A stretch of 64,000 nt of DNA from Deltaproteobacteria bacterium. Its GTDB lineage: Bacteria; UBA10199; SBBF01. Within the stretch, counting starts at the first letter, position 1, and the number at the start of each line of letters is the position of its first letter. Position numbers and translations under genes: made by a program. This document shows, in pieces, positions 26,600 to 59,253 of this stretch. The stretch is taken from contig JACPFC010000026.1 in the NCBI GenBank assembly GCA_016183175.1, positions 41,907 through 105,906 of the forward strand, read 5' to 3'. The notes below the pieces were generated by a model. It searched no databases. It saw nothing but the letters and a program-made list of their open reading frames with translations, and was not told the DNA's origin.

Positions 26600-29281
26600 T
26601 TAAAATTCGCGGCCCAGGATAAGATAGGCCGCTCCTGCATCGGAGCCGCCGCTGTCTTCGGCAGGAGCCCCCGCCAAAAAATCATCGATGGCATCACCGT
26701 CGACATCCCCCGCGGGAGCCACGGATCCGGCGGCATCCGAGGCCGCTTCTCCCGTGAATTTGACTTCTGCGTCGGAGAGATCCGTTGTGCCGGTCGCCGG
26801 GCCGTAGATGAGGTAGACGGCGCCGGCGTCGGCGGCAGACCCGTCATTTGACGGGGCCCCCACCAGAATATCCGGCGTGCCGTCGTCATTCGGATCGCCG
26901 GCGGAAGAAACAAAGGTGCCGGCGCTGTCCCCCGTGTTTTCACCCGTGAATCTTGCGTTGGCGCCTGAAAGAGAAAGGGAACCGCTTAAAGGGCCCAGGA
27001 CAAGATAGGCGGCCCCCGCACCACTGCTTTCTCCGGAGGCCCCCACAAGCATGTCATCATAGCCGTCGCCGTTATGATCGCCGGCGGGGGCGACAGATGT
27101 GCCGGCATAAGCATTGTCCTCCACCCCTTCCATTTGACCGTCGGCGGCAGAAAGGTCAACGGCGCCGGAAACAGGGCCATCGATCAGATAGGCCATCCCT
27201 GCCGCCAAACCGGCCGAATCGTTCCCGATGGCGCCGATTAAAATATCGCCGGTTCCATCGCCGTATACATCTCCCGCCGATGCGACCGCCCATCCGGCCG
27301 AATCAGAGGCGTCTTCCCCCAGCAATATCGCCTCCGCCCCGGAGAGGTTCCGGGTTCCACTGACGGGGCCGTGGACCAGGTAGGCCGCGCCGGCAGTGAT
27401 GCCTCCCGCATCATTGTAGATGGCTCCCACGAGCACATCATCATTGCCGTCCCCATCCATATCCCCGGCGGAGGAGGTGGAATACCCTGCCAGATCGCCA
27501 CCTGCCTCGCCGATAAGCTTTGCCCCCCCGGAAGAAAGATCGGCAGTCCCTGTGAGAGGACCATAGACGATATATGCGGCGCCGGCGTCGGAGCCGCCGC
27601 CATCCTCCTGATAGGCGCCGACGATAAGGTCGACATTTCCGTCCCCATCCACATCCCCGGCGGAGGAGACGGCATAACCGGCCATATCGCCATCCGCCTC
27701 GCCCAGAAGTTTGGCGCCGGCGGTCGAAAGGTCCACCGAGCCGCTGACGGGTCCGTAGACGACATAAACGGCGCCGGCCCCCGTTGCGGCGGAACTTTCG
27801 CCGTATGCACCCACCAGGATATCGTCAAATCCATCGGCGTCAAAATCGCCGGCCGGGGCCAGGGACCGTCCTGCATCGTTGTCGTCGGTTTCTCCAATCA
27901 ACTTGGCGTCGGCGTCGGCAAGACTGTTTGTGGCGGGTTCACAACCATCGGATGTCCCGTCGCAATTGCTGTCCATGCCGTCGAAACAGGTATCGGTTGA
28001 CGCCGGATGAGTGGAACTGTCCCCGTCATCACAGTCATCATTTGTTGCGGCCACGCCGGCCGGAGGGTCGCAATAATCAACCGCACTGGCGGTTTCGTCT
28101 CCGTAGCCGTCGCCGTCGATATCGGTGTAATAAGAGCTTTTTCCCGTTGCTGAAGAATCATCGTCATCGGCCAGGCCGTCGCAGTCTTCGTCGGTGTCGG
28201 AGGCATCACAGATCTCCGTGGCCGAGGGGTTAATCGAAGAATCGCTGTCGTCGCAGTCGGTGTTTGTTGCGGCATAGCCGCTTCCCGGATCGTCACAAAA
28301 CAGAGTGCCTGTTGTGTCCGACTCATCGCCGTATCCGTCCCCATCGCTGTCGGCATACCATGTGCCCTGGCCCGTAACGGATGAGTCGTCATCGTCGGTT
28401 GCGCCGTCGCAGTCGTTGTCGATGGTGTCACAGATTTCCGTGGCCACAGGATTAATGGCCGAATTGGCATCATCACAATCATCGTTCGTTGTCGAGACGC
28501 CGGAAGAGGGAGGGTCGCAGTAGTCGGTTCCTGTTGCATCGTTCGTGTCACCATATCCATCGTTGTCGGCATCGGTGTACCGGGTGACCTTGCCTTCAGC
28601 TCCATCCGGATCGGCATCATCAGCATATCCGTTGCAGTTTTCGTCAACGTCGTCGGGGTCGCACTCTTCGAAGGCAGAGGGATTAATGGATGGATCGGTG
28701 TCGTTACAATCCCCCTCGCAGGAGGCCAGACCATCCCCATCGCCATCGTCGATGTCGGCGATGTCGTCACAGTTTCTGTCTTCGGTGTCACACTCGGTGG
28801 GAGCGCCGGGGTAGTAATCGGCGGCGGAATCGTTGCAGTCGTCGTTGGTCGCGGCATAGCCGCTTTCCGGATCGTCACAAAACAGAGTGCCTGTTGTGTC
28901 CAACTCATCGCCGTATCCGTCCCCATCGCTGTCGGCGTACCAAGTGGTTGCATCGGTTACATTGTCGTCTTCGTCGTCAATCAGGGAGTTGCAGTCGTTG
29001 TCGATTTCATCGCAGACTTCGGCGGCCGAGGGGTTGGTGGCGGCATCGGCGTCATTGCAATCATCGCCGTTGTCCGCATATCCGGCCGTTCCGGCGCAGA
29101 CGCTTGCCAGAAGGTCGCTTGCGCCGTAGCCATCTCCGTCATCATCTACGAAGGCATCTATGGTGCCGCCAATTTTTGGATCGTTGGGATCACAGTCGTC
29201 ACTGTCCCAGTAGCCGTCTTCGTCGGCATCGTTGGCCTTGTAGCCGCAGGCGGACAACAAATATAAAAGAAGCGGGTTCAT
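26600..29281 (-). CDS. Giant acidic lipoprotein: 7 MopE-like Cys-rich 'putative metal-binding' repeats followed by ~8 FG-GAP (integrin-alpha beta-propeller) repeats
   Basis: 893 aa. Lipobox LLSAC at the N-terminus. Repeated DCDDxDxxINPxAxExCDxxDNDCDG units and WYADSDGDGYGDE motifs. C-terminal repeated D.DGDG..D..VGA...GAAY..GP units. The underlying DNA is highly repetitive. Confidence 0.8.
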   Translation of the reverse strand: MNPLLLYLLSACGYKANDADEDGYWDSDDCDPNDPKIGGTIDAFVDDDGDGYGASDLLASVCAGTAGYADNGDDCNDADAATNPSAAEVCDEIDNDCNSLIDDEDDNVTDATTWYADSDGDGYGDELDTTGTLFCDDPESGYAATNDDCNDSAADYYPGAPTECDTEDRNCDDIADIDDGDGDGLASCEGDCNDTDPSINPSAFEECDPDDVDENCNGYADDADPDGAEGKVTRYTDADNDGYGDTNDATGTDYCDPPSSGVSTTNDDCDDANSAINPVATEICDTIDNDCDGATDDDDSSVTGQGTWYADSDGDGYGDESDTTGTLFCDDPGSGYAATNTDCDDSDSSINPSATEICDASDTDEDCDGLADDDDSSATGKSSYYTDIDGDGYGDETASAVDYCDPPAGVAATNDDCDDGDSSTHPASTDTCFDGMDSNCDGTSDGCEPATNSLADADAKLIGETDDNDAGRSLAPAGDFDADGFDDILVGAYGESSAATGAGAVYVVYGPVSGSVDLSTAGAKLLGEADGDMAGYAVSSAGDVDGDGNVDLIVGAYQEDGGGSDAGAAYIVYGPLTGTADLSSGGAKLIGEAGGDLAGYSTSSAGDMDGDGNDDVLVGAIYNDAGGITAGAAYLVHGPVSGTRNLSGAEAILLGEDASDSAGWAVASAGDVYGDGTGDILIGAIGNDSAGLAAGMAYLIDGPVSGAVDLSAADGQMEGVEDNAYAGTSVAPAGDHNGDGYDDMLVGASGESSGAGAAYLVLGPLSGSLSLSGANARFTGENTGDSAGTFVSSAGDPNDDGTPDILVGAPSNDGSAADAGAVYLIYGPATGTTDLSDAEVKFTGEAASDAAGSVAPAGDVDGDAIDDFLAGAPAEDSGGSDAGAAYLILGREF

Positions 29282-29282
29282 A

Positions 29283-30593
29283 TTAAAAAGTGACTCCCAG
29301 TCCCAATTGATATGAGTTCACGGCAAAGGGGGCTCCGGAGGTCCATTCGGGATTCTCCGCGACTTCCCCTTCAATCCCAATCACGGCATGCTGAACGCCG
29401 AGCTCCAAAAATACCGACCTGTCCGAGGGGGATTTTTTTTCGATCAAAAACGAGGCCCCCAAAACCGGCGTCTGAATAATAGAGAGGTTTTTAAGTTCAA
29501 CGTCCGCGCTCCCGACGCCGATTCGCTGGTCGGCCGGCGCGCCAAACGGGGAATCAAAGTTGGCGCCGTGGCCTAAAGAGATTCCGGCGCCAAAGACCGC
29601 CGGCTTTGTCCGGAAAAGGGCATGGAGCCTTAAACTCCCCTGCAGATAAGAATTGTCCAGGGCGTACGGGACATCTTCCGTTCCCTGCTGGGTTGTGACG
29701 CCGTAGCCAAGCCGTCCCCCCGCTCGGAGACCCAGCTTCCGCGTCAACAACGTTTCGGCAAACGCGCCGGCGAAGAGAGACAGATCTCCCCCTCTCATGA
29801 CATAAGAGGGGCCGTAGGTGGGAGATGTTGTCCGGCCTCCTCCCATGAGGCCAAGTTCACCATGAATCTGCTGTTTTGCTTTTGTCAAAGGAGGAGCTGT
29901 TGCCGCCGCTTCCTTCCGGCCGTTGGTTTTGCCGAGTTTTACTTCCTGATAATTTTCAGAGCCGTTCTTTTCAATCGACTGGAACGTCCAGGTCCGCTGA
30001 TCTTCCGCGGAGAGAGAAGGCGCCCCTTCCGCGATGGGGACGAACCGGTAATCGATTTCCACAACAGGCAGAAGCCCTTTAAACGATCCTGTTGCCTTGA
30101 GTTGGGCATCGGCGGACTCGATGCTTTTTCTTTGATCGGGAGCTATAGGCATTGCGGAAGGGACAAGGGAGTAAGACGATCCCGCGGGGGAAGTGATGTC
30201 GACACAACCATACTCTCTTTCGATATAGGCGATGTCCCCCTCCACTTCGGTTTTTACGGAGCCGATCGGATTGCTCTGAAGGGCCAGTTGTTCCCTCCGG
30301 TAGAAGGCAAGGGAATCGCCGCGTTCCCTGGCCGCCAAGGCCCCCCAGTGGTGGACCTCCGCATCAATGGGGACATTCAGCGCGAGGATGTCTTGATAAT
30401 TGTCCTCGACGCCGTCCCATTTGCCTGTCCGCACCAGTTTTTTAACTTCTTCCTTGAGACGGACATATTCGGCCCCTTTCCTGGTGGGCCTCTCCTTTTC
30501 CTCTGGAGCCATGGCGATGCCGTCATCTTCCAGCAAATACCAAGGTTCCGTGGCAGAGGGAGCGGTTAATGGCGGTAAATAAGGGGTGTCCAT
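29283..30593 (-). CDS. Hypothetical protein (possible beta-barrel/outer-membrane-like C-terminus), co-transcribed with the lipoprotein
   Basis: 436 aa. A 1-nt gap to the downstream lipoprotein gene. The Gly/aromatic-rich C-terminal half ends ...LGLGVTF. No family recognised. Confidence 0.4.
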   Translation of the reverse strand: MDTPYLPPLTAPSATEPWYLLEDDGIAMAPEEKERPTRKGAEYVRLKEEVKKLVRTGKWDGVEDNYQDILALNVPIDAEVHHWGALAARERGDSLAFYRREQLALQSNPIGSVKTEVEGDIAYIEREYGCVDITSPAGSSYSLVPSAMPIAPDQRKSIESADAQLKATGSFKGLLPVVEIDYRFVPIAEGAPSLSAEDQRTWTFQSIEKNGSENYQEVKLGKTNGRKEAAATAPPLTKAKQQIHGELGLMGGGRTTSPTYGPSYVMRGGDLSLFAGAFAETLLTRKLGLRAGGRLGYGVTTQQGTEDVPYALDNSYLQGSLRLHALFRTKPAVFGAGISLGHGANFDSPFGAPADQRIGVGSADVELKNLSIIQTPVLGASFLIEKKSPSDRSVFLELGVQHAVIGIEGEVAENPEWTSGAPFAVNSYQLGLGVTF

Positions 30594-30665
30594 AGGTATT
30601 CAACGGTTGTTATCGGCTGATTCTTAAAAAAGTTGCGTTAATAATTATAAAAACAAAAATAATTA

Positions 30666-31055
30666 TTAAGAAAGGGTTTGAAGCCAGTTGGCCTTCAGGA
30701 GATTCATGTCCATGGTAGCCAGGGGGATATCGTAGACAAGGGATGTGGCCGCCAAAAAGCGGTCGGCGGGGTCCTGGTGGGGGAGATCGACCTCGCGGCT
30801 TTTAATGGCGACCTCGGTGTTTAGGGGGGCCTCATGCAGAGGCGCTTGTTCCAGGCACCTGCGCACCCACCTGACCGGGTCGGTATTAACGCCAAATTTC
30901 CCCTTTTGGATCAAAATGATTGTTTCCCAAATTGAAATGGGGGAAAGCCAGAGATCTTCGGTGTGATGATCGAGGGTGTTACGCAAGGAGGCCGGCATGT
31001 TTGGAGAGGTCGACACATACCAAAGCCAGATATGCGTATCGAGGAGAATTTTCAT
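30666..31055 (-). CDS. vapC: Type II toxin VapC (PIN domain)
   Basis: N-terminus MKILLDTHIWLWY is a typical PIN/VapC. The start at Met7 of ORF 30666..31073 abuts the antitoxin stop. Confidence 0.8.
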   Translation of the reverse strand: MKILLDTHIWLWYVSTSPNMPASLRNTLDHHTEDLWLSPISIWETIILIQKGKFGVNTDPVRWVRRCLEQAPLHEAPLNTEVAIKSREVDLPHQDPADRFLAATSLVYDIPLATMDMNLLKANWLQTLS

Positions 31056-31291
31056 TCCTTGAATACTTCCCAATCATCTGTTCCCAAAGGGCTGACAATA
31101 TCGCCAATGAATGTGACACTATCTTTCATGCACCCGTACGAGGATCTCTTGACAGGAGGTTTTGGAGGAGGGGCGACCATGGCAATCGGAACCCCCTTTT
31201 TTGTGACAACCAAAGACTCTCCCGTATTCTTCACTCGTTCCAATAACTTAAGGCATGTAGCCTTAAATTGAGAGATCGCAATGGTTTCCAT
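31052..31291 (-). CDS. Type II antitoxin, Phd/YefM family
   Basis: 79 aa, ISQFKATCLKLLERVKNTGESLVVTKKGVPIAMV, directly upstream of vapC. Confidence 0.75.
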   Translation of the reverse strand: METIAISQFKATCLKLLERVKNTGESLVVTKKGVPIAMVAPPPKPPVKRSSYGCMKDSVTFIGDIVSPLGTDDWEVFKE

Positions 31292-41467: not shown

Positions 41468-42607
41468 ATGGTTAAGCGCGATGTTTATTTCATGTCCCGG
41501 TGCCTCCAGTTGGCCCAAAAGGCCGCTGGACACACATCCCCCAATCCTTTGGTCGGCGCTGTCATCGTCAAAAATGGCAAACTCCTCGCCGGAGGCTACC
41601 ACCACAAAGCGGGTCTGCCTCACGCCGAGATTGAAGCCCTGAAAAAAATCAGCTTTAGGGCGGAAGGCGCTACCCTCTATTGCAACCTCGAACCCTGTTT
41701 TCACCACGGCCGGACGCCGCCGTGCGTTCATCCGATTATTAAGAGCGGCATCAAACGGGTGGTGATCGCCCACCGCGACCCGAATCCGCTGGTTGCTGGA
41801 AGATCGGTCCGCCTCCTTAAAAAATCGGGGATTCAGGTCACCGAAGGGGTTTTGGAAAAAGAGGCGCGGCATTTGAACCGGTTTTTTCTGACTTGGGTGA
41901 CAAAGAAAAGGCCGTATGTGATTTTGAAGGCAGGGGTGAGCCTCGATGGAAAAATTGCAGGAGGGAAAAAATGGATCACCAGTCCCCCCTCCCGCCGCCG
42001 TGTCCATCAACTCCGTTCCCAAGTTGACGCTATTCTGGTCGGCGCACACACAATCAGAACCGACAACCCGCGTTTAAACGTTCGGGGAATCAAGGGAGCG
42101 AAACAGCCCTTAAGGATTATCTTAGGGAGTAGGCGTCAGATTCCTGTAAATGCAAGAATTTTTGCGGGGATCCAGCCATGTCCCCCTGAAAATCTGGATT
42201 CCCGCTTGCGCGGGAATGACAGATTGATGTTTTTTAGAGGTGCCCTACCGACCCTTATGCGAAAACTGGCCCGGCGAAACGTAACCTCGATTCTGGTAGA
42301 AGGGGGGGCCAAGGTTTTTGCCTCGTTTATCAAAAATAGCCTTTGCGACGAGCTCATCCTCTTTATCGCCCCGAAAATTTTGGGACCAAGTGCCCTTGAT
42401 GTCTTTCCGCCATCACTGCTGAAAAAATTTCCATTTAAGATTTCCTCAATAACCCCTTCCGGCCCAGACTTGGAGGTTCGGTTTGGGACAAAGAAAAAAG
42501 GGGCTATTGCCAAGGCCTGCCAAAATGCCAATAAGGATGCGAAAACCAATCGGTTGATCCGGGAGTGGCAGGGTTTTGACGAAAAAGCGGATGGTGAATG
42601 GAAATGA
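41468..42607 (+). CDS. ribD: Bifunctional riboflavin biosynthesis deaminase/reductase RibD
   Basis: CMP/dCMP deaminase zinc motif HAEIEAL...NLEPCFHHGRTPPC plus a C-terminal RibD reductase domain. The 3' end or an alternative start may differ slightly. Confidence 0.85.
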   Translation: MVKRDVYFMSRCLQLAQKAAGHTSPNPLVGAVIVKNGKLLAGGYHHKAGLPHAEIEALKKISFRAEGATLYCNLEPCFHHGRTPPCVHPIIKSGIKRVVIAHRDPNPLVAGRSVRLLKKSGIQVTEGVLEKEARHLNRFFLTWVTKKRPYVILKAGVSLDGKIAGGKKWITSPPSRRRVHQLRSQVDAILVGAHTIRTDNPRLNVRGIKGAKQPLRIILGSRRQIPVNARIFAGIQPCPPENLDSRLRGNDRLMFFRGALPTLMRKLARRNVTSILVEGGAKVFASFIKNSLCDELILFIAPKILGPSALDVFPPSLLKKFPFKISSITPSGPDLEVRFGTKKKGAIAKACQNANKDAKTNRLIREWQGFDEKADGEWK

Positions 42608-42773
42608 CCGGAAAATTTCCAAGACGGGGAGATATCCGGGGACATTGTCAGCTCGTAAGGTTTACTTTCCATAAAATTTATTAATTAAAAAACCGCGCAA
42701 CTTTTTCGGCGTTGCGCCGATAATCGGATTAAATCCCTGGCAGGTTGCCGTTTTTTGATTTAGGGCACAAACA

Positions 42774-45617
42774 ATGGCCGACTTATTTTCACCCCTTTCC
42801 TTTGCGGGCTCTGCCGTTTCCGCTCTTGCTACTTATGCCCGTGCAGAGGTCGCTGAATATCTCGACGAAAACCTCTCTCCGGCAAAACTTGCCGGCGAGG
42901 CGCTCCGTAACGGCAAAGAATATCTCGATCTCATCGGAGACGCCGCGCGTTTTCTTCCGGCGCCGTTTAGCCCCTCTCCCATCCTTGCCTCCACCTCAAC
43001 AGCGGGCGACGGCTCCGTCACAGGAGGGGGCGGTGTCGAGGAGGCAGGGCCGACTTCCGGCGTTACTGAAGCCCCTCCGGCAGACGTGGCAGACCCACCG
43101 GCCGCGGCGCCGGAAGATCCGGCGCTTACGGATGAGGTAATTGGCCAGCGCCTCCAACGTTACGGCCTCCAAAACAATGAGTTTAACCGAAGGGCCTACC
43201 GTCAGGCCTACAACATCGGCAAAAGGGATGTCCCGCTCGATCTGACCGACGCGCAGATAAAAAAAATGGGGCTGACCGATCTCCCCAAGACAGTGAAGGG
43301 TGTTCCCGTCTGGGACATCGACCATACCAATTTCTTCTGGCGGCAATCGATTCCCACCACGGCTCTGGACTATGTCATCGGACAAATTGACGGTTTCCTG
43401 GAAAGAATGCATTCCCCCCTTCGCTGGAAAGGCGAAGCCCCCATTGTTGTCAATAATCAGTGGGGGGCGGGGCGCCAGGCCATGTTGCTGGGCTTTGCCG
43501 ACGGTTCCGAAAAAGTCATTCCCGTTGACAGCCGCGGATTTCCTTGGCGGCTGGCCGATCTCTCCATGCAATCGCCCGCCTTTGCCAAAGCCCTTTTGGG
43601 GATCGAACCCGAAGAGATGAACCGGATGAAAATCGAACGGGGGCATGACGCCACCCGTGAGGAGCTGATTCGAAAAGTCCGGACGGCGCCCAATATTTTC
43701 ACGTATGAGAATCTGCCGGCCGTGGTCAAGGAGGCCTTCGACCAGTATACGCGCAATCCCGAAGAGATGACCCCGGCCGAGTGGCTTGTCGTCGCATTGG
43801 AAACCAGAAAACCGGGAAGTTCCAAGACCAAACCGTGGTATTATCACGTCGTTGGCGAAAGGGTGATGGTAGCGCTTCACTCTCTGGGAGTGGGCCATGT
43901 GGACGACCGGCGGGAAACAGCCAGAAACGTCACGACGCCCGCCGCGCGAAGCCGTATTGTCCTCCTCACAAACCCCGAAGAGGTGGGAGAATTTGCCTGG
44001 GGAGGGGCCGCTACGATTCAGGCCGACCTTGTCAGGGGGACCTCGACGCATCAGACTTCCCTCATCCTTCAGGCGGTGGAACGACTCACACTCCCGTTGA
44101 CGGGGGAAGATGCCTCCTCCGGGGAGACTGCACAGGATGCGTTGCGCACCGGGGAGCAGGTGATCCAGATCCCCCTTTCACGCGGTGCAGGGGAGAAAAG
44201 CGTCATTGTCCTGCGCGTGCCGAAACCGCTTCCGGAAGGATCCTACGACTCCTCGGCTGACACGGTAATCATGTATGTCCCGTCTGTTGATTTTAATAAA
44301 CAGTATTTCGGTTCGAAAAGTCAGGCCCGCGGAACCATGGTCCGGGCGCACCTGGATGGCGCTACCCCTCCCATGAGGTTGTCGACGGAATATATCCGTT
44401 ATCTCGCCTCCAAGGGGGGATTTTCCATGCTGGAGATGGGGGGTTCTCTTTATCTCGCAAAAAGCCTGGTTGGAGAGGAGATGGATTGGCGGGAGGTGGG
44501 GCCGGAGGTCGGCATTTTTTCGGCCTTTGGGTTAGTGGGGGGTGCGATGGGGGAGCTCCGTTTTTACCGGGGACCTTTCGCCAACATCCTGACCCCCTTT
44601 GCCGCCATGTCGGCGGTGCAGGTCTATTACCACCGCGAGGTGACGCCGGTGGCCAACGCCGGAGTGGCCGGCGGTTTTGCCTTGGCGCACTGGGGGGCCC
44701 ATCGCTTCATCACCCAGCCGTTCATTGTCCAGCCGCTGGGGGCCCGTGCCATCCGTGCCATGCAAGCCGGCGAAGCGGGCAAGGCGCGTCTGGTGCAGAT
44801 GGGCATGAGGGGAGCCGCCGGCGCGGTGAGCTTTGGCCTTTCCACCGTCCTTTTTACCGGTTTGGAGTGGTGGGCCCGCGACAGCAGGATTGAATATTAT
44901 GAAAATTTCCGCCAAAACATAACCGACCGTCTCCTGAACAGTTATGTTGATTACCGCAAAAAGGCCTCTGTTCTGGAGGCAAAGGCCGCACGGGGAGAGG
45001 CAATATCGTCGGGAGAATCTGGGGAAGTCGATCGCCTCTTTAGCGGCTTTGAAGAAAATTTGGGGGACTCCGCCAATACCCCCTATCTGGTTGCAGGCGA
45101 TTTTCCCGACATTGAAGGGAAACACTACATCGAATCGCAGATTCAATATGCAACGCTCGGCAGAGAACTGGAACAGGAGGGGGATGAATATGTCCGGACC
45201 ACCCTCTATGAAAAGGGGTTTTCGGTCGGCCAAACCGACCTGATCAAGGCGGAACTGGACAAATATTTTAAAGACTCTGGAAAATTGGAAGAATTAAACC
45301 GCGCCAAACAGACTGCCGAGCGGGCAACAAAGGTGCTGGAGGCAAGACGGATGCAGAAGGTGATCGTGGATCAGGAACATCTGGAAGAGGCGGGAAACGA
45401 AATTTTAGGCCGGCTTGAGGGGAAGGTTTCCCTCGAAGAGGTCAAGGCCGTTTTTGAAGGGCTTAAAGGATACGAGCTGGCCTATGTCTGCGCCATGCTC
45501 CTTGAAAAGGAGCGCGGGAGAAGGGGGGAGTTTTTGAAGAGCCTCCCGGAGCGACCGATAGGGCCGGAACTGCCTGCTCAAGAGGTCGAGCCGAAGAAAG
45601 GATTGGAAGGAGAGTAA
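42774..45617 (+). CDS. Large hypothetical protein (947 aa), first gene of the inserted island
   Basis: Long ORF with ATG start. Has a Gly/Ala-rich hydrophobic segment (GIFSAFGLVGGAMGELRFY...GLSTVLFTGLEWW) and a C-terminal coiled-coil-like region. No family recognised. Confidence 0.6.
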   Translation: MADLFSPLSFAGSAVSALATYARAEVAEYLDENLSPAKLAGEALRNGKEYLDLIGDAARFLPAPFSPSPILASTSTAGDGSVTGGGGVEEAGPTSGVTEAPPADVADPPAAAPEDPALTDEVIGQRLQRYGLQNNEFNRRAYRQAYNIGKRDVPLDLTDAQIKKMGLTDLPKTVKGVPVWDIDHTNFFWRQSIPTTALDYVIGQIDGFLERMHSPLRWKGEAPIVVNNQWGAGRQAMLLGFADGSEKVIPVDSRGFPWRLADLSMQSPAFAKALLGIEPEEMNRMKIERGHDATREELIRKVRTAPNIFTYENLPAVVKEAFDQYTRNPEEMTPAEWLVVALETRKPGSSKTKPWYYHVVGERVMVALHSLGVGHVDDRRETARNVTTPAARSRIVLLTNPEEVGEFAWGGAATIQADLVRGTSTHQTSLILQAVERLTLPLTGEDASSGETAQDALRTGEQVIQIPLSRGAGEKSVIVLRVPKPLPEGSYDSSADTVIMYVPSVDFNKQYFGSKSQARGTMVRAHLDGATPPMRLSTEYIRYLASKGGFSMLEMGGSLYLAKSLVGEEMDWREVGPEVGIFSAFGLVGGAMGELRFYRGPFANILTPFAAMSAVQVYYHREVTPVANAGVAGGFALAHWGAHRFITQPFIVQPLGARAIRAMQAGEAGKARLVQMGMRGAAGAVSFGLSTVLFTGLEWWARDSRIEYYENFRQNITDRLLNSYVDYRKKASVLEAKAARGEAISSGESGEVDRLFSGFEENLGDSANTPYLVAGDFPDIEGKHYIESQIQYATLGRELEQEGDEYVRTTLYEKGFSVGQTDLIKAELDKYFKDSGKLEELNRAKQTAERATKVLEARRMQKVIVDQEHLEEAGNEILGRLEGKVSLEEVKAVFEGLKGYELAYVCAMLLEKERGRRGEFLKSLPERPIGPELPAQEVEPKKGLEGE

Positions 45618-45619
45618 TT

Positions 45620-46411
45620 ATGGGAGACACACGACCCCCTGTTATTTATTTTGATCCCGTGGACAAGAATCTCTTTGAAGAATGCGGGGCCATTTTTCCA
45701 AGCGATCAGAAACCGGGGACGCTCAAACCGGATAATTTCGATGTCACGAATCTTCGTCCGGAACTGCGGAAGCTGTACGCGGGGGAAAATCCTTATTCTT
45801 TTTTTGTGCAGGAATTCCGAACGGGAGGGGGTCACGTCAGCCGGGAACGGATGGAGGAGCTGGCCCCAATCTGCCGCGATCCCGAGGCCTACCTCGATGG
45901 AAAGAAAGGGTTCCCATGCTACTGGTTAGAAGAAAAAACCGGTTTTCCGGGGTGGGTCTGCGAGGCAGGCGCTTGGACGGTGGGAGGGGCGGTGGTCGCC
46001 GAAGGGGTGCGAAGAGGGATCAAATATGTCCGCCAAAAGCCCGGTGGCGGGGATCCTCCCACGGAACCGCCGGCCGGTTCGGCTCCGGCGGGAGAACCGG
46101 CTCCTGCGGGTGCTCCTCAAGGAGATGGGCCAGCCGTGGTCCCTCCCGAGGCGCCGCCGGTTGAGGGGGATCAACAGGCCGAATGGTCGGTTCCTTCCAT
46201 CGACTGGGCGACCGCCGGCTACATCGCGCTCGGCACGGGGCTTGCTGTGGGGGCGGTGGTGCTTTTTTGCATCCCTTTTGACGGTCCATTTGGCGAGGGG
46301 GCGGCGGGGGCCGGATCGATCGCCAGCTTTACCGCCGCCGCGGCGCGGCTGGGACTTTTTTCCTCCCCGATGACGGCCCCTGTGTTGGCCTACGCCCGTA
46401 CCCTGCGATAA
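45620..46411 (+). CDS. Hypothetical protein (263 aa), Pro-rich linker plus C-terminal transmembrane helix; translationally coupled to the 947-aa gene
   Basis: GGAGG Shine-Dalgarno sequence and ATG 2 nt after the upstream stop. C-terminal AGYIALGTGLAVGAVVLFCIPF TM segment. Confidence 0.55.
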   Translation: MGDTRPPVIYFDPVDKNLFEECGAIFPSDQKPGTLKPDNFDVTNLRPELRKLYAGENPYSFFVQEFRTGGGHVSRERMEELAPICRDPEAYLDGKKGFPCYWLEEKTGFPGWVCEAGAWTVGGAVVAEGVRRGIKYVRQKPGGGDPPTEPPAGSAPAGEPAPAGAPQGDGPAVVPPEAPPVEGDQQAEWSVPSIDWATAGYIALGTGLAVGAVVLFCIPFDGPFGEGAAGAGSIASFTAAAARLGLFSSPMTAPVLAYARTLR

Positions 46412-46495
46412 TTTATCTCGCAATTCACCCTGCTCGCCGACGCCGTTTGATTAGGTTGACAATTTGGAATATATATTCTATTATTTGGAATAATT

Positions 46496-46726
46496 ATGAA
46501 AACAACCTTGATGATCGACAACTTTCTTTTCAAGGAGGCGCGGAAGGAGGCCGTTAAAACGGGGCGTTCCCTAAGCGAGACAATCAGCCTGTGGGCACGG
46601 GCCGGGCATGCGGCGATGTCCCGCGGGAAAAAAAGACCCCCCGTGTTAAAAACCGTCGACCTCGGAGGGCCGGCCGCCATCGACATCAACTCCCGCAGAA
46701 ACTGGATGGATGCGCTCGATTCATGA
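46496..46726 (+). CDS. Type II antitoxin (VapB-like)
   Basis: 76 aa, MKTTLMIDNFLFKEARKEAVKTGRSLSETISLWARAG. Its stop overlaps the vapC start (ATGA). Confidence 0.65.
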   Translation: MKTTLMIDNFLFKEARKEAVKTGRSLSETISLWARAGHAAMSRGKKRPPVLKTVDLGGPAAIDINSRRNWMDALDS

Positions 46727-47142
46727 TCGCCCTCGACACCAATGTCATCATTCATCTTCTGGTCCGCTCGCAGGCGGAGCATCCGCGGGCCAAGGCATGG
46801 TTTGGGCAAAATGACGAACCATTGGCCACCACGTCAACCAATGTGGGGGAGGTCTTGCGCCTTTTGTCGCATCCGCGGGTCTTTTTGGCCCCTTTAACGC
46901 TCGCAAAGGCCGTCGATCTTTTGAAAAGTTTCGTGGAAGACCGGGAGATTTCTGTTCTCGATGAGGCCGAGGCCTGGTGGTCCGATCTGGGCGAGCTTGC
47001 CCGGGAACTGCCGACGGTGGCCGGCAATGAGGTCTTCGATGCCCGCATTGCCCTCTGCCTCCGTCACCACGGGGTACGGCATATCTGCACCCTCGATGAC
47101 GATTTTTTAAAATATCCTTTTTTGAAACAGGTGAAGATTTAA
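46723..47142 (+). CDS. vapC: Type II toxin VapC (PIN domain)
   Basis: MIALDTNVIIHLL... PIN motif. The listed ORF 46591..47142 is the same frame with an upstream read-through start. Confidence 0.75.
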   Translation: MIALDTNVIIHLLVRSQAEHPRAKAWFGQNDEPLATTSTNVGEVLRLLSHPRVFLAPLTLAKAVDLLKSFVEDREISVLDEAEAWWSDLGELARELPTVAGNEVFDARIALCLRHHGVRHICTLDDDFLKYPFLKQVKI

Positions 47143-47331
47143 TCCGGCAGGAAAGCCCCACGATTGCTTTTACTACTCTCCCATTTTTTATTAAAAAAAC
47201 CACGCAACTTTTCTTGAAAAGACCGGGAGGTCACACAGTGTCTGCCGAAGGCAAGAGGGCTAGGCCCAGGCCTTTAGGCCGGGGAGATTCACTTGTGGGC
47301 GCCGAGGCCGTTTTACGGATTAAATAAATGT

Positions 47332-47360
47332 TTGACAAAAAATTATTTCGTAATACAATA
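47332..47360 (+). promoter_or_regulatory. Sigma-70-like promoter (TTGACA -16/17- TACAAT) for the AbrB-VapC module
   Basis: tttgacaaaaaattatttcgtaatacaataaag lies ~35 nt upstream of ATG 47398. Confidence 0.5.
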
Positions 47361-47397
47361 AAGTCAGCATAATAAATCTGTATTTCTTTTTTAAGTT

Positions 47398-47613
47398 ATG
47401 ACATACACTTCGGTTTCTCCCAAATTTCAGGTGGTCATCCCCAAGGCAATACGGCAAAGGGTTGCCATGCGCCCCAGACAAAAACTGATGGTCATGGAAA
47501 AGAGGGGGATTATCCACCTGATCCCCGAGACGCCCCTTGTCCAAATGAAGGGCCTGTTCAAGGGGCGGGGCCTGACCACGGCCAATCTGCGTGAAAAAAA
47601 GGATCGGCTATGA
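47398..47613 (+). CDS. Type II antitoxin, AbrB/MazE/SpoVT fold (VapB)
   Basis: 71 aa, KFQVVIPKAIRQRVAM. Its stop overlaps the vapC start. Confidence 0.7.
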   Translation: MTYTSVSPKFQVVIPKAIRQRVAMRPRQKLMVMEKRGIIHLIPETPLVQMKGLFKGRGLTTANLREKKDRL

Positions 47614-47978
47614 AGGTCGTGGTCGATTCTTCCGGATGGATCGAGTTTTTTGCCGGTCTCCCCAAGGCGGACAAGTTCGCCAAATACCTGCTCGGGTCTC
47701 ATTCTCTTTTTATTCCCGCCGTGGTCATTTACGAAGTCTACCGGAAAACGAAAAAAGAACTGGGCGAAGAGGAGGCAATCATGTGCATGGGCCAGATGCA
47801 AAAAGGAACCATTGTCCCCTTCGATTCGGATATGGCCCTTTATGCGGCCGATTTGTCCCTGCAACACGGATTGCCGATGGCCGACTCGCAGGTCTACGCC
47901 GCGGCCCTTTTCCATCAGGCCCAACTGGTGACCTCCGATAACGACTTCCGGGGCCTTCCGGGGGTGGTGTTGATCTGA
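47610..47978 (+). CDS. vapC: Type II toxin VapC (PIN domain)
   Basis: MKVVVDSSGWIEFFAG...VTSDNDF PIN signature. Confidence 0.75.
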   Translation: MKVVVDSSGWIEFFAGLPKADKFAKYLLGSHSLFIPAVVIYEVYRKTKKELGEEEAIMCMGQMQKGTIVPFDSDMALYAADLSLQHGLPMADSQVYAAALFHQAQLVTSDNDFRGLPGVVLI

Positions 47979-48106
47979 ACGCCTTTTTTACTATCCCCCC
48001 ATTTTTTTATTAAAAAAACCACGCAACTTTTCTTGAAAAAATCCGATAAGACGTGTAAGGAACCCGAAATTTTGGCCCAAAATTTTTCCGCCGGGAGACC
48101 GATTCC

Positions 48107-57148: not shown

Positions 57149-57678
57149 CACTCCACATCAAATTCACCTCCAAACCGTTCGACAAAATCGAAACGCGGTG
57201 CGCCGCGATGACGGTCTATTCCGATTTCCGTCCGCTAAAGGGGGTTTCGTCGCTGGTCGACTGGCGGCTGAACGGCCGGCTCTCGCAGGTTTTAAAGACC
57301 AACCGGTTTCAGGGAAATTTCGGCGAGTGCCTCCTCATGCCGGCCGAAAGGCGCATACGGGCGCAGACCATTCTGGTGATGGGGCTGGGGCCGCGCGGGG
57401 TTTTCAACGAGTCGCATGTCGGGGCGACCACGCAACTGCTTCTGGAAAAAATGGCGCAGAAAAAGATCGGCGACTTCCTGGTCTCCTATTCCGATTTCAT
57501 CGCCGACCGGTTCGAGTGGCGGAACGGCGTGAGACTGCTCGTCTCGAAACTGCACGATTTTTCAGAAATCGGGGCGGTCACCCTGTGCGAACCGGACGAC
57601 TGCGTCCGCGACGCCAAGAGGCGGCATATGGATTTTGGGGGGAATGTGGATGTCGCCTTTGAGATGATGGGTTCATGA
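57145..57678 (+). CDS. Hypothetical protein, co-transcribed with nusB
   Basis: 177 aa; ATGA overlap with the nusB stop. No family recognised. Confidence 0.45.
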   Translation: MTLHIKFTSKPFDKIETRCAAMTVYSDFRPLKGVSSLVDWRLNGRLSQVLKTNRFQGNFGECLLMPAERRIRAQTILVMGLGPRGVFNESHVGATTQLLLEKMAQKKIGDFLVSYSDFIADRFEWRNGVRLLVSKLHDFSEIGAVTLCEPDDCVRDAKRRHMDFGGNVDVAFEMMGS

Positions 57679-58296
57679 GTGTCTACCAAACTGCGAGTTC
57701 TTGGCAATGACGAAGCGGCTTCTGACGAGGCATTGATGGCCTCCTACCAGAAAGGGGACCTGCATGCCTTTGAGGTTTTGCTCACCCGCCATCAAAAGGG
57801 AATTTATAATTTTCTTTACCGGTTTTTGGGGCACAATCAGAACACGGAGGAGGCCTTTCAGGAGGTTTTTGAGAGGGTGATCCGCGGGGCCTCCTCCTAT
57901 GCCCCCACGGCGCGGTTTTCCACCTGGCTTTATACCATCGCGAGAAACTACTGCATCGATCTGTCCCGAAAGGGGCGTTTCAGAAAAACCGTTTCGCTGG
58001 ACGACGCGCCCTCTGAAGAGAAGGCTCTCCCCTTGAGTGAACGGGTCGTCTCCGCAGAGCCGAATCCCGACGAAATAGTCTCTGCCTCCAATCTGGAACA
58101 AAAACTGGAAGAGGCCCTGGCCCGGATCAACCCCGATCAGCGGGAGGTGTTCCTCCTGCGCGAAAGGCAGGGGCTTCCTTTCGAGGAGATCGCTCAAATC
58201 GTGGAGGTTTCGGTCAATACGGTAAAAAGCCGGATGCGGTATGCCCTTTCGGCCCTTCAAAATGAGTTTAAAAAATTGGGGATAACAGATCATTAA
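57679..58296 (+). CDS. ECF-type RNA polymerase sigma factor (sigma-70 family, group 4)
   Basis: GTG start. Region 2 FEVLLTRHQKGIYNFLYRF...FSTWLYTIARN and region 4 LPFEEIAQIVEVSVNTVKSRM. Confidence 0.85.
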   Translation: MSTKLRVLGNDEAASDEALMASYQKGDLHAFEVLLTRHQKGIYNFLYRFLGHNQNTEEAFQEVFERVIRGASSYAPTARFSTWLYTIARNYCIDLSRKGRFRKTVSLDDAPSEEKALPLSERVVSAEPNPDEIVSASNLEQKLEEALARINPDQREVFLLRERQGLPFEEIAQIVEVSVNTVKSRMRYALSALQNEFKKLGITDH

Positions 58297-58320
58297 GGAA
58301 ATTCATGCGTTGAATAAGGG

Positions 58321-59253
58321 GTGACAATGGACTGCCCGAAGATTCAAGACAATCTGCTCGATATCATCTACGAAGAGGCCTCTTCCGCTGTCCGCGAAAA
58401 GGTAGAGGCCCATTTGACCTCATGCCGGGCCTGCCGAGAGGAGATAAATCAACTCATTGAAATAAGGTCAGTTTTCAGCAAACTCCCCGATTGTGAGCCG
58501 GCTTCTCGTCTTGTGAGCAATGTCATGGCTTTGGCCCGGTATACCCCCGGCACCGGCCCTGCCGGCAAGGCCCGTTACCCGTTACTTGTTACTCGTCACT
58601 CGTCACTCGTTGGGCGGTTTTTGGATGCTTTTTTTGTTCTCCGTCCGGTCCCCTTGATGGTTGCGGCGTCGATGATTTTGGCGGTAACCCTCCTTTTTAA
58701 TTCAAGGGCCCCTTTGCAGTCTCCTTCCTATTCCTCCCTTCCCGATCATGATTTGTTTGTCGTCAACGAGGCGGCCCTTCGGGAGCGGGTGCTGGAAAAT
58801 CCTTTTGAAATCGAAAACCCCGCCTTCGATCTGAAATATAGGGATCCTTCGGGCAGGATGCAGGCGGTTTCTCCCGGCTTCAACATGGAAATTCTTGACG
58901 ATGGGGCTTCTCTTGCAGGCATCGAGAAGATTCTGATGGAGAGGCGAAAGATGCTTGTGGAGGCCGACGCCGACAGCCTGATGATGCGCGGAAGGCGCCT
59001 GAAGGCGATGGGGAGGGTCGATATGGCCCTCAAGGATTTTGAGACGATCTACCGTTTTTATCCCGACTACACCTACATCGGCGATGTCCTTATCTATCGC
59101 GCGCAGTGCCATGCCGTTTTGGGGGAGTACGACAGGGCCCTCGAAGGCCTCGATGTCTATTCCGCCAAATTCCCGGAGAAGGCCTCTTTTGTCCGGTCGA
59201 TAATCGAACAGGTCGAAGGCCGGAAGACAAAAGAAAAACCTCCTTTACAATAA
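58321..59253 (+). CDS. Anti-sigma factor (zf-HC2 zinc-finger type) with TM helix
   Basis: N-terminal [11 protein letters not shown] zinc motif; TM segment [16 protein letters not shown]. Directly downstream of the ECF sigma gene. Confidence 0.7.

What the first reader, a model, noticed from the sequence alone, without database searches (positions are those of the whole stretch)
42661..48042. Three copies of a ~50-bp element (TTTACT...CCCATTTTTTATTAAAAAAACCACGCAACTTTTCTTGAAAA) placed right after gene ends at cassette boundaries
Near-identical copies lie at 47167-47221 and 47985-48042, bracketing the second VapBC module. A degenerate third copy lies at 42661-42710, just after ribD and before the 947-aa gene. 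Each copy sits immediately 3' of a stop codon and 5' of the next unit. That pattern could mean cassette-like modular assembly (recombination sites or target duplications) or a re-used promoter/terminator unit.
Basis: seen in the sequence. Interest (0 to 1): 0.6.

Follow-up and report, generated by a model that had tools for sequence, protein, structure and literature searches.

The report
Reused alternative-sigma promoter, one broken copy
The repeated ~55-bp element is a lineage-wide promoter for an alternative sigma factor (AT-rich upstream tract, -35 CCACGCAAC, -10 GCCGATAA) that drives large hypothetical genes, and one of the three copies is a truncated leftover from a recent rearrangement next to a toxin-antitoxin module, not a recombination site.

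Summary
Copies A (47168-47221) and B (47986-48049) share 37 identical bases, and copy C (42661-42723) is related. A fourth copy, D, lies on the minus strand (30610-30672).

The element is a two-part promoter: an AT-rich upstream tract, an extended -35 (C/T)(C/A)(A/G)CGCAACTTTT, an 11-nt variable spacer, then (G)CCGATAA. B, C and D have the whole motif. A stops inside the spacer and has no -10.

The same motif with the same spacing occurs in 81 metagenome contigs and about 19 genome loci, in groundwater "Deltaproteobacteria" MAGs and Bdellovibrio-like MAGs. An ORF start follows within 60 nt at 45/74 sites in the forward direction, against 11/73 in reverse and about 10% at random positions. C, B and D are conserved at orthologous positions in a related MAG (JACQOY) that has no toxin-antitoxin modules there.

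The -10 and the geometry match sigma-28 (FliA) promoters. The -35 (GCAAC) does not, so an ECF-type sigma remains possible.

Copy A's right edge cuts a hairpin that is intact in another assembly of the same population. It is therefore a rearrangement scar. There is no conserved hairpin and no integrase in the window, so the attC reading is not supported. Interest is modest.

The parts
47986..48049 (+). Copy B: complete promoter of the 1516-aa acyltransferase-like gene. AT-rich UP-like tract 47986-48018, extended -35 CCACGCAACTTTT 48019-48031, spacer, -10 TCCGATAA 48042-48049. Predicted start of transcription about 48057; ATG at 48107.
   Evidence: Sequence; exact two-part match. The orthologous gene in JACQOY (74% aa identity) is preceded by TTTAGCAACATTT-N11-CCGATAA.
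42661..42723 (+). Copy C: complete promoter of the 947-aa gene. TTTACTTTCCATAAAATTTATTAATTAAAAAA 42661-42692, -35 CCGCGCAACTTTT 42693-42705, -10 GCCGATAA 42716-42723. Predicted start about 42731; ATG at 42774.
   Evidence: The ortholog downstream of ribD in JACQOY keeps TTTACTTTaATAAAATTTATTAA...TCACGCAACTTTT-N11-CCGATAA although RibD is only 63% identical. L145 and L146 also have TAGCAAC-N15-CCGATAA after ribD.
47168..47221 (+). Copy A: truncated copy with the UP-like tract, -35 CCACGCAAC (47200-47208) and most of the spacer. It has no -10: CCGGGAG/CGGGAGG lies where CCGATAA should be. Probably inactive.
   Evidence: Orphan -35 halves are rare in related loci.
30610..30672 (-). Copy D, not in the finding: a complete promoter on the minus strand. 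AT-rich palindrome, TAACGCAACTTTT, N11, GCCGATAA. The ATG of the 436-aa ORF (29283-30593) lies only 16 nt after the -10.
   Evidence: An orthologous promoter lies after the NusG-like gene in JACQOY (L144 minus strand, 196).
47219..47313 (+). 3' part of a long imperfect hairpin. Its 5' arm is missing here but present in Logan contig L001. It marks the rearrangement junction at the right edge of copy A.
   Evidence: L001 matches window 47219-48615 at 100% but its first 48 nt differ. L001 1-165 folds at -72 kcal/mol, z -3.15; the window version has z -0.33. No Rfam match.
47332..47978 (+). VapBC2 module with its own sigma-70 promoter (TTGACA-16-TACAAT, 47332-47359). Antitoxin 47398-47613, PIN toxin 47610-47978.
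46456..47142 (+). VapBC1 module with its own sigma-70 promoter (TTGACA-17-TATTAT, 46456-46484). ParD-like antitoxin 46496-46726, PIN toxin 46723-47142.
48107..52657 (+). 1516-aa gene with a PlsC-type acyltransferase domain, driven by copy B. Conserved between ribD and ribE in relatives.
42774..45617 (+). 947-aa gene with no Pfam domain, driven by copy C.
29283..30593 (-). 436-aa gene with no Pfam domain, driven by copy D. Its C-terminus ends ...GVTF (outer-membrane-barrel-like; my inference). An FG-GAP/MopE 893-aa gene follows.

Best explanation
The element is a promoter for an alternative sigma factor, reused across a large regulon in this uncultured groundwater lineage. Its parts are an AT-rich tract 30-35 nt long (an inferred UP element for the RNA polymerase alpha subunit), an extended -35 block (C/T)(C/A)(A/G)CGCAAC(TTTT), an 11-nt spacer that is not conserved, and a -10 block (G)CCGATAA. 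Copies B, C and the newly found D are complete. They drive the 1516-aa acyltransferase-like gene, the 947-aa gene and the 436-aa gene. The -10 and the geometry (7-mer at -36..-30, 14 nt, 8-mer at -15..-8) are those of sigma-28 (FliA/SigD/WhiG) promoters. I therefore infer a sigma-28-family factor whose region 4 reads GCAAC instead of TAAAG, about 50-55% likely; an ECF-type sigma is the main alternative. Copy A is not an independent unit. It is the upstream half of the acyltransferase-gene promoter, fused at 47219-47221 to the middle of a hairpin that precedes VapBC2. The most likely cause is illegitimate recombination (homology-facilitated insertion or a deletion) at a 2-nt AA microhomology when VapBC2 and its flank were joined to a chromosome that already had PIN1 followed by the promoter. 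Shown: the motif, its spacing, its orientation bias, its orthologous conservation, the missing -10 in A, and the alternative junction in L001. Inferred: promoter activity, the identity of the sigma factor, the UP-element role, and the recombination route. The confidence of 0.8 is for 'alternative-sigma promoter with one truncated copy'. The sigma-28-family assignment alone is about 0.5, and the recombination route alone about 0.6.
For: (1) Of 54 genome loci found with only the -35 half, about 19 carry CCGATAA-like -10 boxes exactly 11 nt after CAACTTTT. All 19 are groundwater 'Deltaproteobacteria', Pseudobdellovibrionaceae or similar MAGs, with several hits per MAG. (2) The full pattern, with 20 specified bases, hits 81 metagenome contigs. 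My rough estimate, assuming about 1 Tb of even base composition, is that chance would give only a few. (3) Positions the search did not fix still show signal: G before CCGATAA in 56/76 sites, an A-tract before the -35, and a GGAGG-like ribosome-binding signal 7-14 nt after the -10. (4) 53 further sites with 1-4 mismatches occur in the same loci, against 0 in reversed-sequence controls. (5) An ORF of at least 100 aa starts within 60 nt in 45/74 sites forward, 11/73 reverse and 140/1472 at random positions. (6) JACQOY (RibD 63% and acyltransferase 74% identical) has the motif after ribD, before the acyltransferase gene and after the NusG-like gene. The upstream TTTACTTT-ATAAAATTTATTAA is conserved while the spacer is not. 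More distant relatives L145 and L146 have TAGCAAC-N15-CCGATAA after ribD. (7) GCCGATAA at -15..-8 and a 7-mer at -36..-30 are the published sigma-28 layout (PMC12784957). Bdellovibrio FliA promoters are TTAAG-N16-CCGATA and drive a large non-flagellar regulon of surface proteins and proteases (PMC3627812; PMC12622784). (8) Among 270 CCGATAA sites in 1.03 Mb of fetched DNA, 112 pair with GCAAC and none with TAAAG or TTAAG. (9) The 30 nt upstream of the -35 are 60-97% A+T in a 55% G+C genome. (10) Copy A: no -10. L001 is 100% identical from 47219 onward but has a different, hairpin-completing 5' flank.
Against: There is no transcription data, so promoter activity is inferred. The -35 GCAAC matches only 3 of 7 positions of the sigma-28 TCTAAAG. 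No sigma-28 gene and no flagellar or chemotaxis genes were seen in the window or in about 1 Mb of related loci. Conservation inside the searched pattern is by construction; only the unforced positions, the secondary sites and the orthologous sites are independent evidence. ORF calls are naive. The recombination route for copy A rests on one 1445-nt Logan contig, and what lies upstream of its 48 distinct bases is unknown.
Confidence: 0.8

Rival explanations
1. It is the same kind of promoter, but read by an ECF (group 4) sigma factor rather than a sigma-28-family (group 3) factor.
For: The -35 GCAAC followed by T's resembles ECF -35 boxes (GGAAC/TGAAAC/TGCAAC types; from my own knowledge of the ECF literature). 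AAC-N16-CGA fits ECF spacing. The window encodes an ECF sigma plus a zf-HC2 anti-sigma at 57679-59253. No flagellar genes lie downstream of the motif.
Against: The 8-nt -10 GCCGATAA is the sigma-28 signature, not the short CGT-type ECF -10. No sigma gene sits directly downstream of a motif copy, so there is no sign of the autoregulation typical of ECFs. The two ECF genes in the loci and the one in the window lack the motif upstream. The density is 3 sites in this 64 kb and 3 in 11 kb of JACQOY. That suggests a regulon far larger than typical ECF regulons, although the related loci were selected for carrying the motif.
Confidence: 0.35
2. A and B are attL/attR-like direct repeats or a target-site duplication left by site-specific insertion of a mobile VapBC2 cassette into the promoter.
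For: A 37-bp identical core flanked by diverged arms brackets an 0.8-kb module. The related genome has no toxin-antitoxin module at this position.
Against: No integrase, transposase or recombinase is present in 64 kb. The left junction falls in the middle of a hairpin that is intact in L001, so it is not a natural element end. C and D are the same motif without any flanked insert. The TA module upstream of D has no flanking repeat. No similar DNA was found in the plasmid collection.
Confidence: 0.07
3. The copies are attC-like integron recombination sites at cassette boundaries.
For: ACGCAAC loosely resembles the inverse core RYYYAAC. In copy C only, GCGCAAC...GTTGCGC forms a 7-bp hairpin.
Against: The hairpin is absent from A, B, D and from the roughly 100 related sites, because the spacer is not conserved. 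There is no GTTRRRY partner and no intI gene. The motif has a fixed-distance CCGATAA box and points at downstream start codons.
Confidence: 0.02
4. It is a binding site for a transcription factor or nucleoid protein, or a terminator/insulator, rather than a promoter core.
For: The conserved -35 block is long (13 nt or more). An AT-rich palindrome sits upstream in each window copy. B begins with a T-run after a weak stem.
Against: Two conserved blocks at a fixed 11-nt spacing, one of them identical to a known -10, with strong orientation bias towards start codons, is promoter anatomy. Folding energies do not differ from shuffles. Terminator-like hits in the region are at the chance level.
Confidence: 0.05
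5. Copy A and its junction are an assembly artefact of a co-assembled MAG.
For: The 37-nt exact repeat and strain variation could confuse de Bruijn graphs: L001 differs at the junction, and L137-L139 are 99.9% identical to the window.
Against: A's upstream arm differs from B's, so A is a distinct sequence. The A|GACCGGG junction shares no k-mer path with either alternative arrangement, so it needs direct read support (inference).
Confidence: 0.05

Closest known systems
Sigma-28 (FliA / SigD / WhiG) promoters, consensus TCTAAAG/TAAA-N15-GCCGATAA
   Same: Identical 8-nt -10 (GCCGATAA in C and D, TCCGATAA in B). Identical geometry, with the conserved -35 7-mer at -36..-30 and the 8-mer at -15..-8.
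   Different: The -35 is (A/T)(C/A)GCAAC, not TCTAAAG/TAAAG (3 of 7 positions match). The sampled downstream genes include no flagellar or chemotaxis genes. The sigma factor itself was not found.
Bdellovibrio bacteriovorus attack-phase FliA regulon (TTAAG-N16-CCGATA; Karunker et al. 2013, PMC3627812)
   Same: A CCGATA -10 used well beyond flagellar genes, in front of surface proteins, proteases and many hypothetical proteins. Some motif-bearing MAGs are labelled Pseudobdellovibrionaceae.
   Different: The -35 box differs (GCAAC against TTAAG). The organism here is an uncultured 'Deltaproteobacteria' MAG of unknown lifestyle. Regulon size and growth-phase dependence are unknown.
ECF sigma factor promoters (-35 GGAAC/TGAAAC, 16-17 nt, -10 CGT..)
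   Same: An AAC-containing -35 followed by T's, and AAC-N16-CG spacing.
   Different: The -10 is an 8-nt GCCGATAA rather than CGTC/CGTA. No autoregulated sigma/anti-sigma operon was seen downstream of a copy.
UP elements of strong sigma-70 promoters (rrnB P1 type)
   Same: An A/T-rich tract directly upstream of the -35. In A and B the distal ATTTTTTTATT and proximal AAAAAAA resemble the two UP subsite consensus sequences (from my knowledge of Estrem et al.).
   Different: It is attached to a non-sigma-70 core promoter. Only A+T richness and an A-tract are conserved across the wider set.
Homology-facilitated illegitimate recombination scars / att-site direct repeats
   Same: Direct repeats with an identical core bracket an acquired module. 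The junction has 2-nt microhomology.
   Different: No recombinase is present, and one junction cuts an otherwise intact hairpin. The repeat is a functional promoter of the host, not an element end.

Membership tests
Sigma-28 (FliA-type) promoter | -10 element GCCGATAA with the essential CGA | tested here: met
   GCCGATAA in C and D, TCCGATAA in B. G precedes CCGATAA in 56/76 related sites although the search did not fix that position. Consensus taken from PMC12784957. Copy A fails this test (CCGGGAG).
Sigma-28 (FliA-type) promoter | -35 element TAAA / TCTAAAG | tested here: not met
   ACGCAAC/TAGCAAC occupies -36..-30, matching 3 of 7 positions. None of 270 CCGATAA sites in 1.03 Mb pairs with TAAAG or TTAAG.
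Sigma-28 (FliA-type) promoter | Spacing: 14 nt between the -35 7-mer and the 8-nt -10 | tested here: met
   Fixed in all window copies and in about 100 related sites.
Sigma-28 (FliA-type) promoter | Transcription depends on a sigma-28-family sigma factor | not testable with these tools
The rest of the MAG could not be read.
ECF sigma promoter | -35 with AAC and -10 with CGT, 16-17 nt apart | tested here: inconclusive
   AAC-N16-CGA: the -35 and the spacing fit, but the -10 is CGATAA rather than CGT.
ECF sigma promoter | The motif precedes its own sigma/anti-sigma operon (autoregulation) | tested here: not met
   The window ECF operon (57679-59253) has only a -35-like match inside an ORF and no -10. 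The two ECF genes in the loci are not downstream of a motif. Of 46 first downstream proteins, one gave a weak Sigma70_r4 hit (7e-05). I attribute it to a multi-HTH protein but did not identify which member matched.
Integron attC site | Imperfect inverted repeats (R''/L''...L'/R') folding into a conserved hairpin with a GTTRRRY core | tested here: not met
   Folding of A, B, C and D does not differ from shuffles, and the only stem (in C) is not shared. The spacer is unconserved across sites.
Integron attC site | An integron integrase, or an array of such sites, nearby | tested here: not met
   A Pfam scan of nearly all the larger ORFs in the window found no integrase, transposase or recombinase.
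Target-site duplication / att core of an inserted element | Direct repeats flank the insert, and both repeat edges coincide with the element's natural ends | tested here: not met
   Repeats do flank VapBC2. However, the left edge (47219-47221) cuts a hairpin that is intact in L001.
Intrinsic terminator | G+C-rich stem-loop followed by a T-run | tested here: not met
   There is only a weak 6-bp stem before B. The count of terminator-like sites in the region is at the chance level, and there is no stable fold.
UP element | A/T-rich tract from about -40 to -60 that raises transcription by binding the alpha C-terminal domain | tested here: inconclusive
   The composition criterion is met: 60-97% A+T in a 55% G+C genome, with an A-tract at -6..-2 from the -35. 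Binding and effect on transcription cannot be tested here.

The most novel reading that the evidence does not exclude
The motif marks a large, non-flagellar regulon of giant, surface-type and unannotated proteins in an uncultured groundwater lineage. It would be controlled by a sigma-28-family factor that has changed its -35 specificity from TAAAG to GCAAC. That would parallel, and extend, the way Bdellovibrio turned FliA into a global life-cycle switch. A less likely addition is that toxin-antitoxin modules insert preferentially next to these promoters.
Probability: 0.35. Interest if true: 0.5.

Novelty: new variant of a known kind. Interest (0 to 1): 0.3.

Why it matters
The result gives an easily searched promoter signature (GCAAC-N15-CCGATAA) for a clade known only from metagenomes. 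With it, one can list a probably large regulon of giant, unannotated genes directly from sequence. It also predicts a sigma-28-like factor with altered -35 recognition, which can be tested from the MAG's sigma genes and by in vitro transcription. In addition, it shows a recent rearrangement in which acquiring a toxin-antitoxin module left a dead half-promoter. That is a useful caution against reading every repeated intergenic element as a recombination site. For the scan itself, the finding is explained and largely ordinary.

Tried and rejected
- **Rfam and tRNA/tmRNA:** Rfam at gathering and at permissive thresholds, and a tRNA/tmRNA scan, found no known RNA and no tRNA-type integration target.
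- **Structure:** DNA and RNA folding of the four copies gave no significant or shared structure, so attC and terminator readings were dropped.
- **Sigma-70 reading:** the sigma-70 scan found only the TA modules' own promoters. By my own alignment the element scores 1 of 6 against TTGACA at the right spacing, and the final T of a putative GATAAT is not conserved.
- **Gene duplication:** the 947-aa and 1516-aa proteins are unrelated, so the promoters were not duplicated along with their genes.
- **Source and homologues:** the 1516-aa protein has only itself as a detectable homologue, and the source contig is not indexed. Exact-protein look-ups for PIN1, VapB1 and the 263-aa protein found nothing. 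VapC2 and VapB2 exist only on L001. The DNA upstream of L001's 48 distinct bases, and any 'empty site' strain, could therefore not be recovered.
- **Synteny:** tblastx of the window against the motif-bearing loci found no synteny except FG-GAP repeats.
- **Literature:** searches for the motif strings returned nothing relevant.
- **Plasmids:** no match for the VapBC2 region.
- **In-ORF match:** the -35-like match at 57427-57450 lies inside an ORF and has no -10, so I judged it chance.
- **Shared sequence upstream of the TA modules:** local alignment of the upstream regions of all five modules found nothing significant beyond a 14-nt 13/14 match.

Full report
**Observation**

A 23-nt core with up to 3 mismatches hits only 42683, 47190 and 48009, with none in 100 shuffles. 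Copies A and B share 37 identical bases (47184-47220 = 48003-48039). They also share a diverged 16-17-nt stretch upstream that begins TTTTACTA. All genes around them are on the + strand:
- ribD 41468-42607
- a 947-aa gene 42774-45617
- a 263-aa gene
- VapB1/PIN1 46496-47142
- VapB2/PIN2 47398-47978
- a 1516-aa gene with an acyltransferase domain, 48107-52657

Both VapBC modules have their own near-consensus sigma-70 promoters (46456 TTGACA-17-TATTAT; 47332 TTGACA-16-TACAAT).

**What the element is**

I scanned one genome per species for only the shared left part, AAAAAACCRCGCAACTTTT. This returned 54 loci. About 35 are scattered chance hits in unrelated phyla. The other roughly 19 come from groundwater 'Deltaproteobacteria' MAGs (JACQOY x3, JACQMB, JACQOX, JACQMA, JACPFG, JACPFF), a Pseudobdellovibrionaceae MAG (x3), a 'Pseudomonadota' MAG (x3) and two unnamed MAGs. 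All of these carry CCGATAA, or a one- or two-base variant, exactly 11 nt after CAACTTTT.

Copy A has CCGGGAG there. A fourth complete copy (D) lies on the minus strand at 30637-30610, in front of a 436-aa ORF.

The full pattern CCRCGCAACTTTT-N11-CCGATAA then hit 81 metagenome contigs.

Evidence that does not depend on the search patterns:
- In 76 unique sites, unfixed positions show G before CCGATAA (56/76), an A-tract before the -35, and a GGAGG-like signal 7-14 nt after the -10.
- 53 extra sites with 1-4 mismatches occur in the same loci, against none in reversed-sequence controls.
- An ORF of at least 100 aa begins within 60 nt downstream at 45 of 74 sites, against 11 of 73 in the opposite orientation and 9.5% at random positions.

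This is the anatomy of a promoter: two conserved boxes, a fixed but unconserved spacer, one orientation, and a short distance to start codons.

**Orthologous conservation**

The source is an NCBI MAG labelled 'Deltaproteobacteria bacterium' (contig 114,835 bp). Its relatives are RIFCSP/ACD/NC-groundwater MAGs.

A contig of JACQOY (L144) is syntenic with the window: NusG-like, UDP-glucose dehydrogenase, ChaN-like, YceD, glyA, nrdR, ribD. RibD is 63% identical and the acyltransferase-like protein 74% identical. The motif appears there in three places:
- After ribD: TTTACTTTaATAAAATTTATTAA...TCACGCAACTTTT-N11-CCGATAA, almost base for base the upstream part of window copy C, while the spacer differs.
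- Before the acyltransferase gene: TTTAGCAACATTT-N11-CCGATAA.
- After the NusG-like gene, minus strand: TCACGCAACTTTT-N11-CCGATAA.

Two more distant relatives (L145, L146) have TAGCAAC-N15-CCGATAA between ribD and a giant gene. So C, B and D are inherited promoters, and the true core of the -35 is GCAAC.

JACQOY has no toxin-antitoxin modules at these places. VapBC1, VapBC2 and the VapBC upstream of D (30666-31291) are therefore later insertions, each with its own sigma-70 promoter.

**Which sigma factor**

Published sigma-28 promoters have (-36)TCTAAAG(-30) and (-15)GCCGATAA(-8) (PMC12784957). Here the -10 is identical, and the conserved ACGCAAC/TAGCAAC occupies exactly -36..-30, but only 3 of 7 bases match.

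In Bdellovibrio, FliA promoters (TTAAG-N16-CCGATA) drive two-thirds of mapped attack-phase promoters, including surface proteins, proteases and many hypothetical genes (PMC3627812; PMC12622784). The genes downstream of the motif here look similar. Few of the 46 first downstream proteins have any Pfam match. The families found are TSP_3 repeats, TPR, a subtilase, an SLT domain and a VgrG-like domain, with no flagellar families.

In 1.03 Mb of fetched DNA, CCGATAA pairs with GCAAC 112 times and never with TAAAG or TTAAG.

The -35 GCAAC plus T's and the AAC-N16-CG spacing also fit ECF promoters. However, no sigma gene lies directly downstream of a copy, and the window's own ECF operon lacks the motif.

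I favour a sigma-28-family factor with altered -35 reading (about 50-55%) over an ECF factor (about 35%). This step is inference.

The 30 nt upstream of the -35 are 60-97% A+T in a 55% G+C genome, and in A and B they resemble the two UP-element subsites (plus my knowledge of UP elements). A role in binding the RNA polymerase alpha subunit is inferred.

**Copy A**

A carries the upstream tract, the -35 and about 10 nt of spacer, and then stops. Orphan halves like this are rare in the related loci.

A Logan contig from the same population (L001, SRR12113422) is 100% identical to the window from 47219 to 48615: VapBC2, copy B and the start of the 1516-aa gene. Its first 48 nt are different. Those 48 nt pair imperfectly with 47282-47310 to close a long hairpin (-72 kcal/mol, z -3.15). 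The window version of the region folds no better than shuffles.

Other contigs from the sister samples are collinear with the window at 99.9%.

The window's junction between copy A and GACCGGG therefore truncates a structure that is whole elsewhere. An imperfect stem is not a fold-back artefact, and the junction shares no k-mer path with the alternative arrangement, so I take both arrangements as real.

The simplest history is as follows. A chromosome had PIN1 - promoter - acyltransferase gene. It recombined with DNA carrying hairpin - VapBC2 - promoter - acyltransferase gene. The recombination was homologous on the right and illegitimate on the left, at an AA microhomology. A deletion between two promoter copies would give the same product. 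Either way, A and B are two versions of one promoter, and A is probably dead because it lacks the CGA of the -10.

**Rejected readings**

attC/integron:
- There is no shared hairpin.
- There is no GTTRRRY partner.
- A Pfam scan of nearly all the larger ORFs found no integrase or transposase. Positions 1-23 kb hold a nonulosonic-acid/polysaccharide cluster.

att sites or target duplication: the left edge is not an element end, and C and D have no flanked insert.

Terminator: no stable G+C stem.

Known RNA: none found.

**Verdict**

As far as my searches reach, the motif is an undescribed variant of a well-known kind of promoter. It is useful for annotating an uncultured lineage, but it is not a new kind of system.

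Noticed in passing
window 42608-54219: The usually contiguous nrdR-ribD-ribE-ribBA-ribH operon is split between ribD and ribE. The gap is about 11.6 kb and holds two giant hypothetical genes, a 263-aa gene and four toxin-antitoxin modules. Relatives (L142, L144-L146) also have a giant acyltransferase-like or unannotated gene after ribD or before ribE, so the split is old and only the TA modules are recent.
   Followed up: partly
window 30666-31291(-), 46496-47142, 47398-47978, 52702-53361, ~53454-54110(-): There are five type II toxin-antitoxin modules in 24 kb: three VapBC/PIN, one MazE-Fic/Doc and one Phd-PIN. Each has its own TTGAC(A/T/G)-type sigma-70 promoter. None is present at the orthologous intergenic sites of JACQOY.
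   Followed up: partly
L001 1-140; window 47219-47313: A roughly 140-nt imperfect hairpin lies upstream of the VapBC2 promoter (-72 kcal/mol, z -3.15, no Rfam match). It is intact in a Logan contig and truncated in the window. Its function is unknown, and no other copy was found in the window or the loci.
   Followed up: partly
window 56055-56175 and 56660-56750: Two very stable hairpins are built from heptad repeats, (GTGGATA/GTGGATG)n ... (CCATTCA)n, and flank ribH (56167-56679). Their z-scores are -6.9 and -5.8. They rely on G-U pairs, so they fold only as + strand RNA.
   Followed up: partly
window 46435-46448 and 47300-47313: CGCCGA(C/G)GCCGTTT (13/14 identical), preceded by ATTCAC, lies 10-20 nt upstream of the TTGACA box of both VapBC1 and VapBC2. 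In VapBC2 it is the 3' end of the hairpin. This could be chance or a shared cassette flank.
   Followed up: partly
window 30593-30616(-); L144 150-180(-): The ATG of the gene driven by copy D lies only 16 nt after the -10 (12 nt in JACQOY). That implies a nearly leaderless mRNA with no ribosome-binding site. Many related sites instead have GGAGG starting 7-8 nt after the -10.
   Followed up: no
window 57679-59253; 57427-57450: An ECF sigma (NCBIfam PRK12513-type, above its cut-off) and a zf-HC2/TPR anti-sigma lie just upstream of rpsO-pnp, as in relative L142. An ACCACGCAAC match 250 nt upstream lies inside an ORF and has no -10; I judged it chance.
   Followed up: partly
window 26600-30593(-); L050: The gene driven by copy D is followed by an 893-aa FG-GAP/MopE-repeat protein. 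In JACQOY locus L050 a motif-driven small gene is likewise followed by FG-GAP repeats, which suggests that FG-GAP surface proteins belong to the regulon.
   Followed up: no
window 302-23498(-): A long minus-strand cluster for nonulosonic-acid and polysaccharide synthesis. It has three NeuB paralogues, CMP-transferases, a sulfotransferase, an APS kinase, a formyltransferase and a DegT aminotransferase.
   Followed up: no
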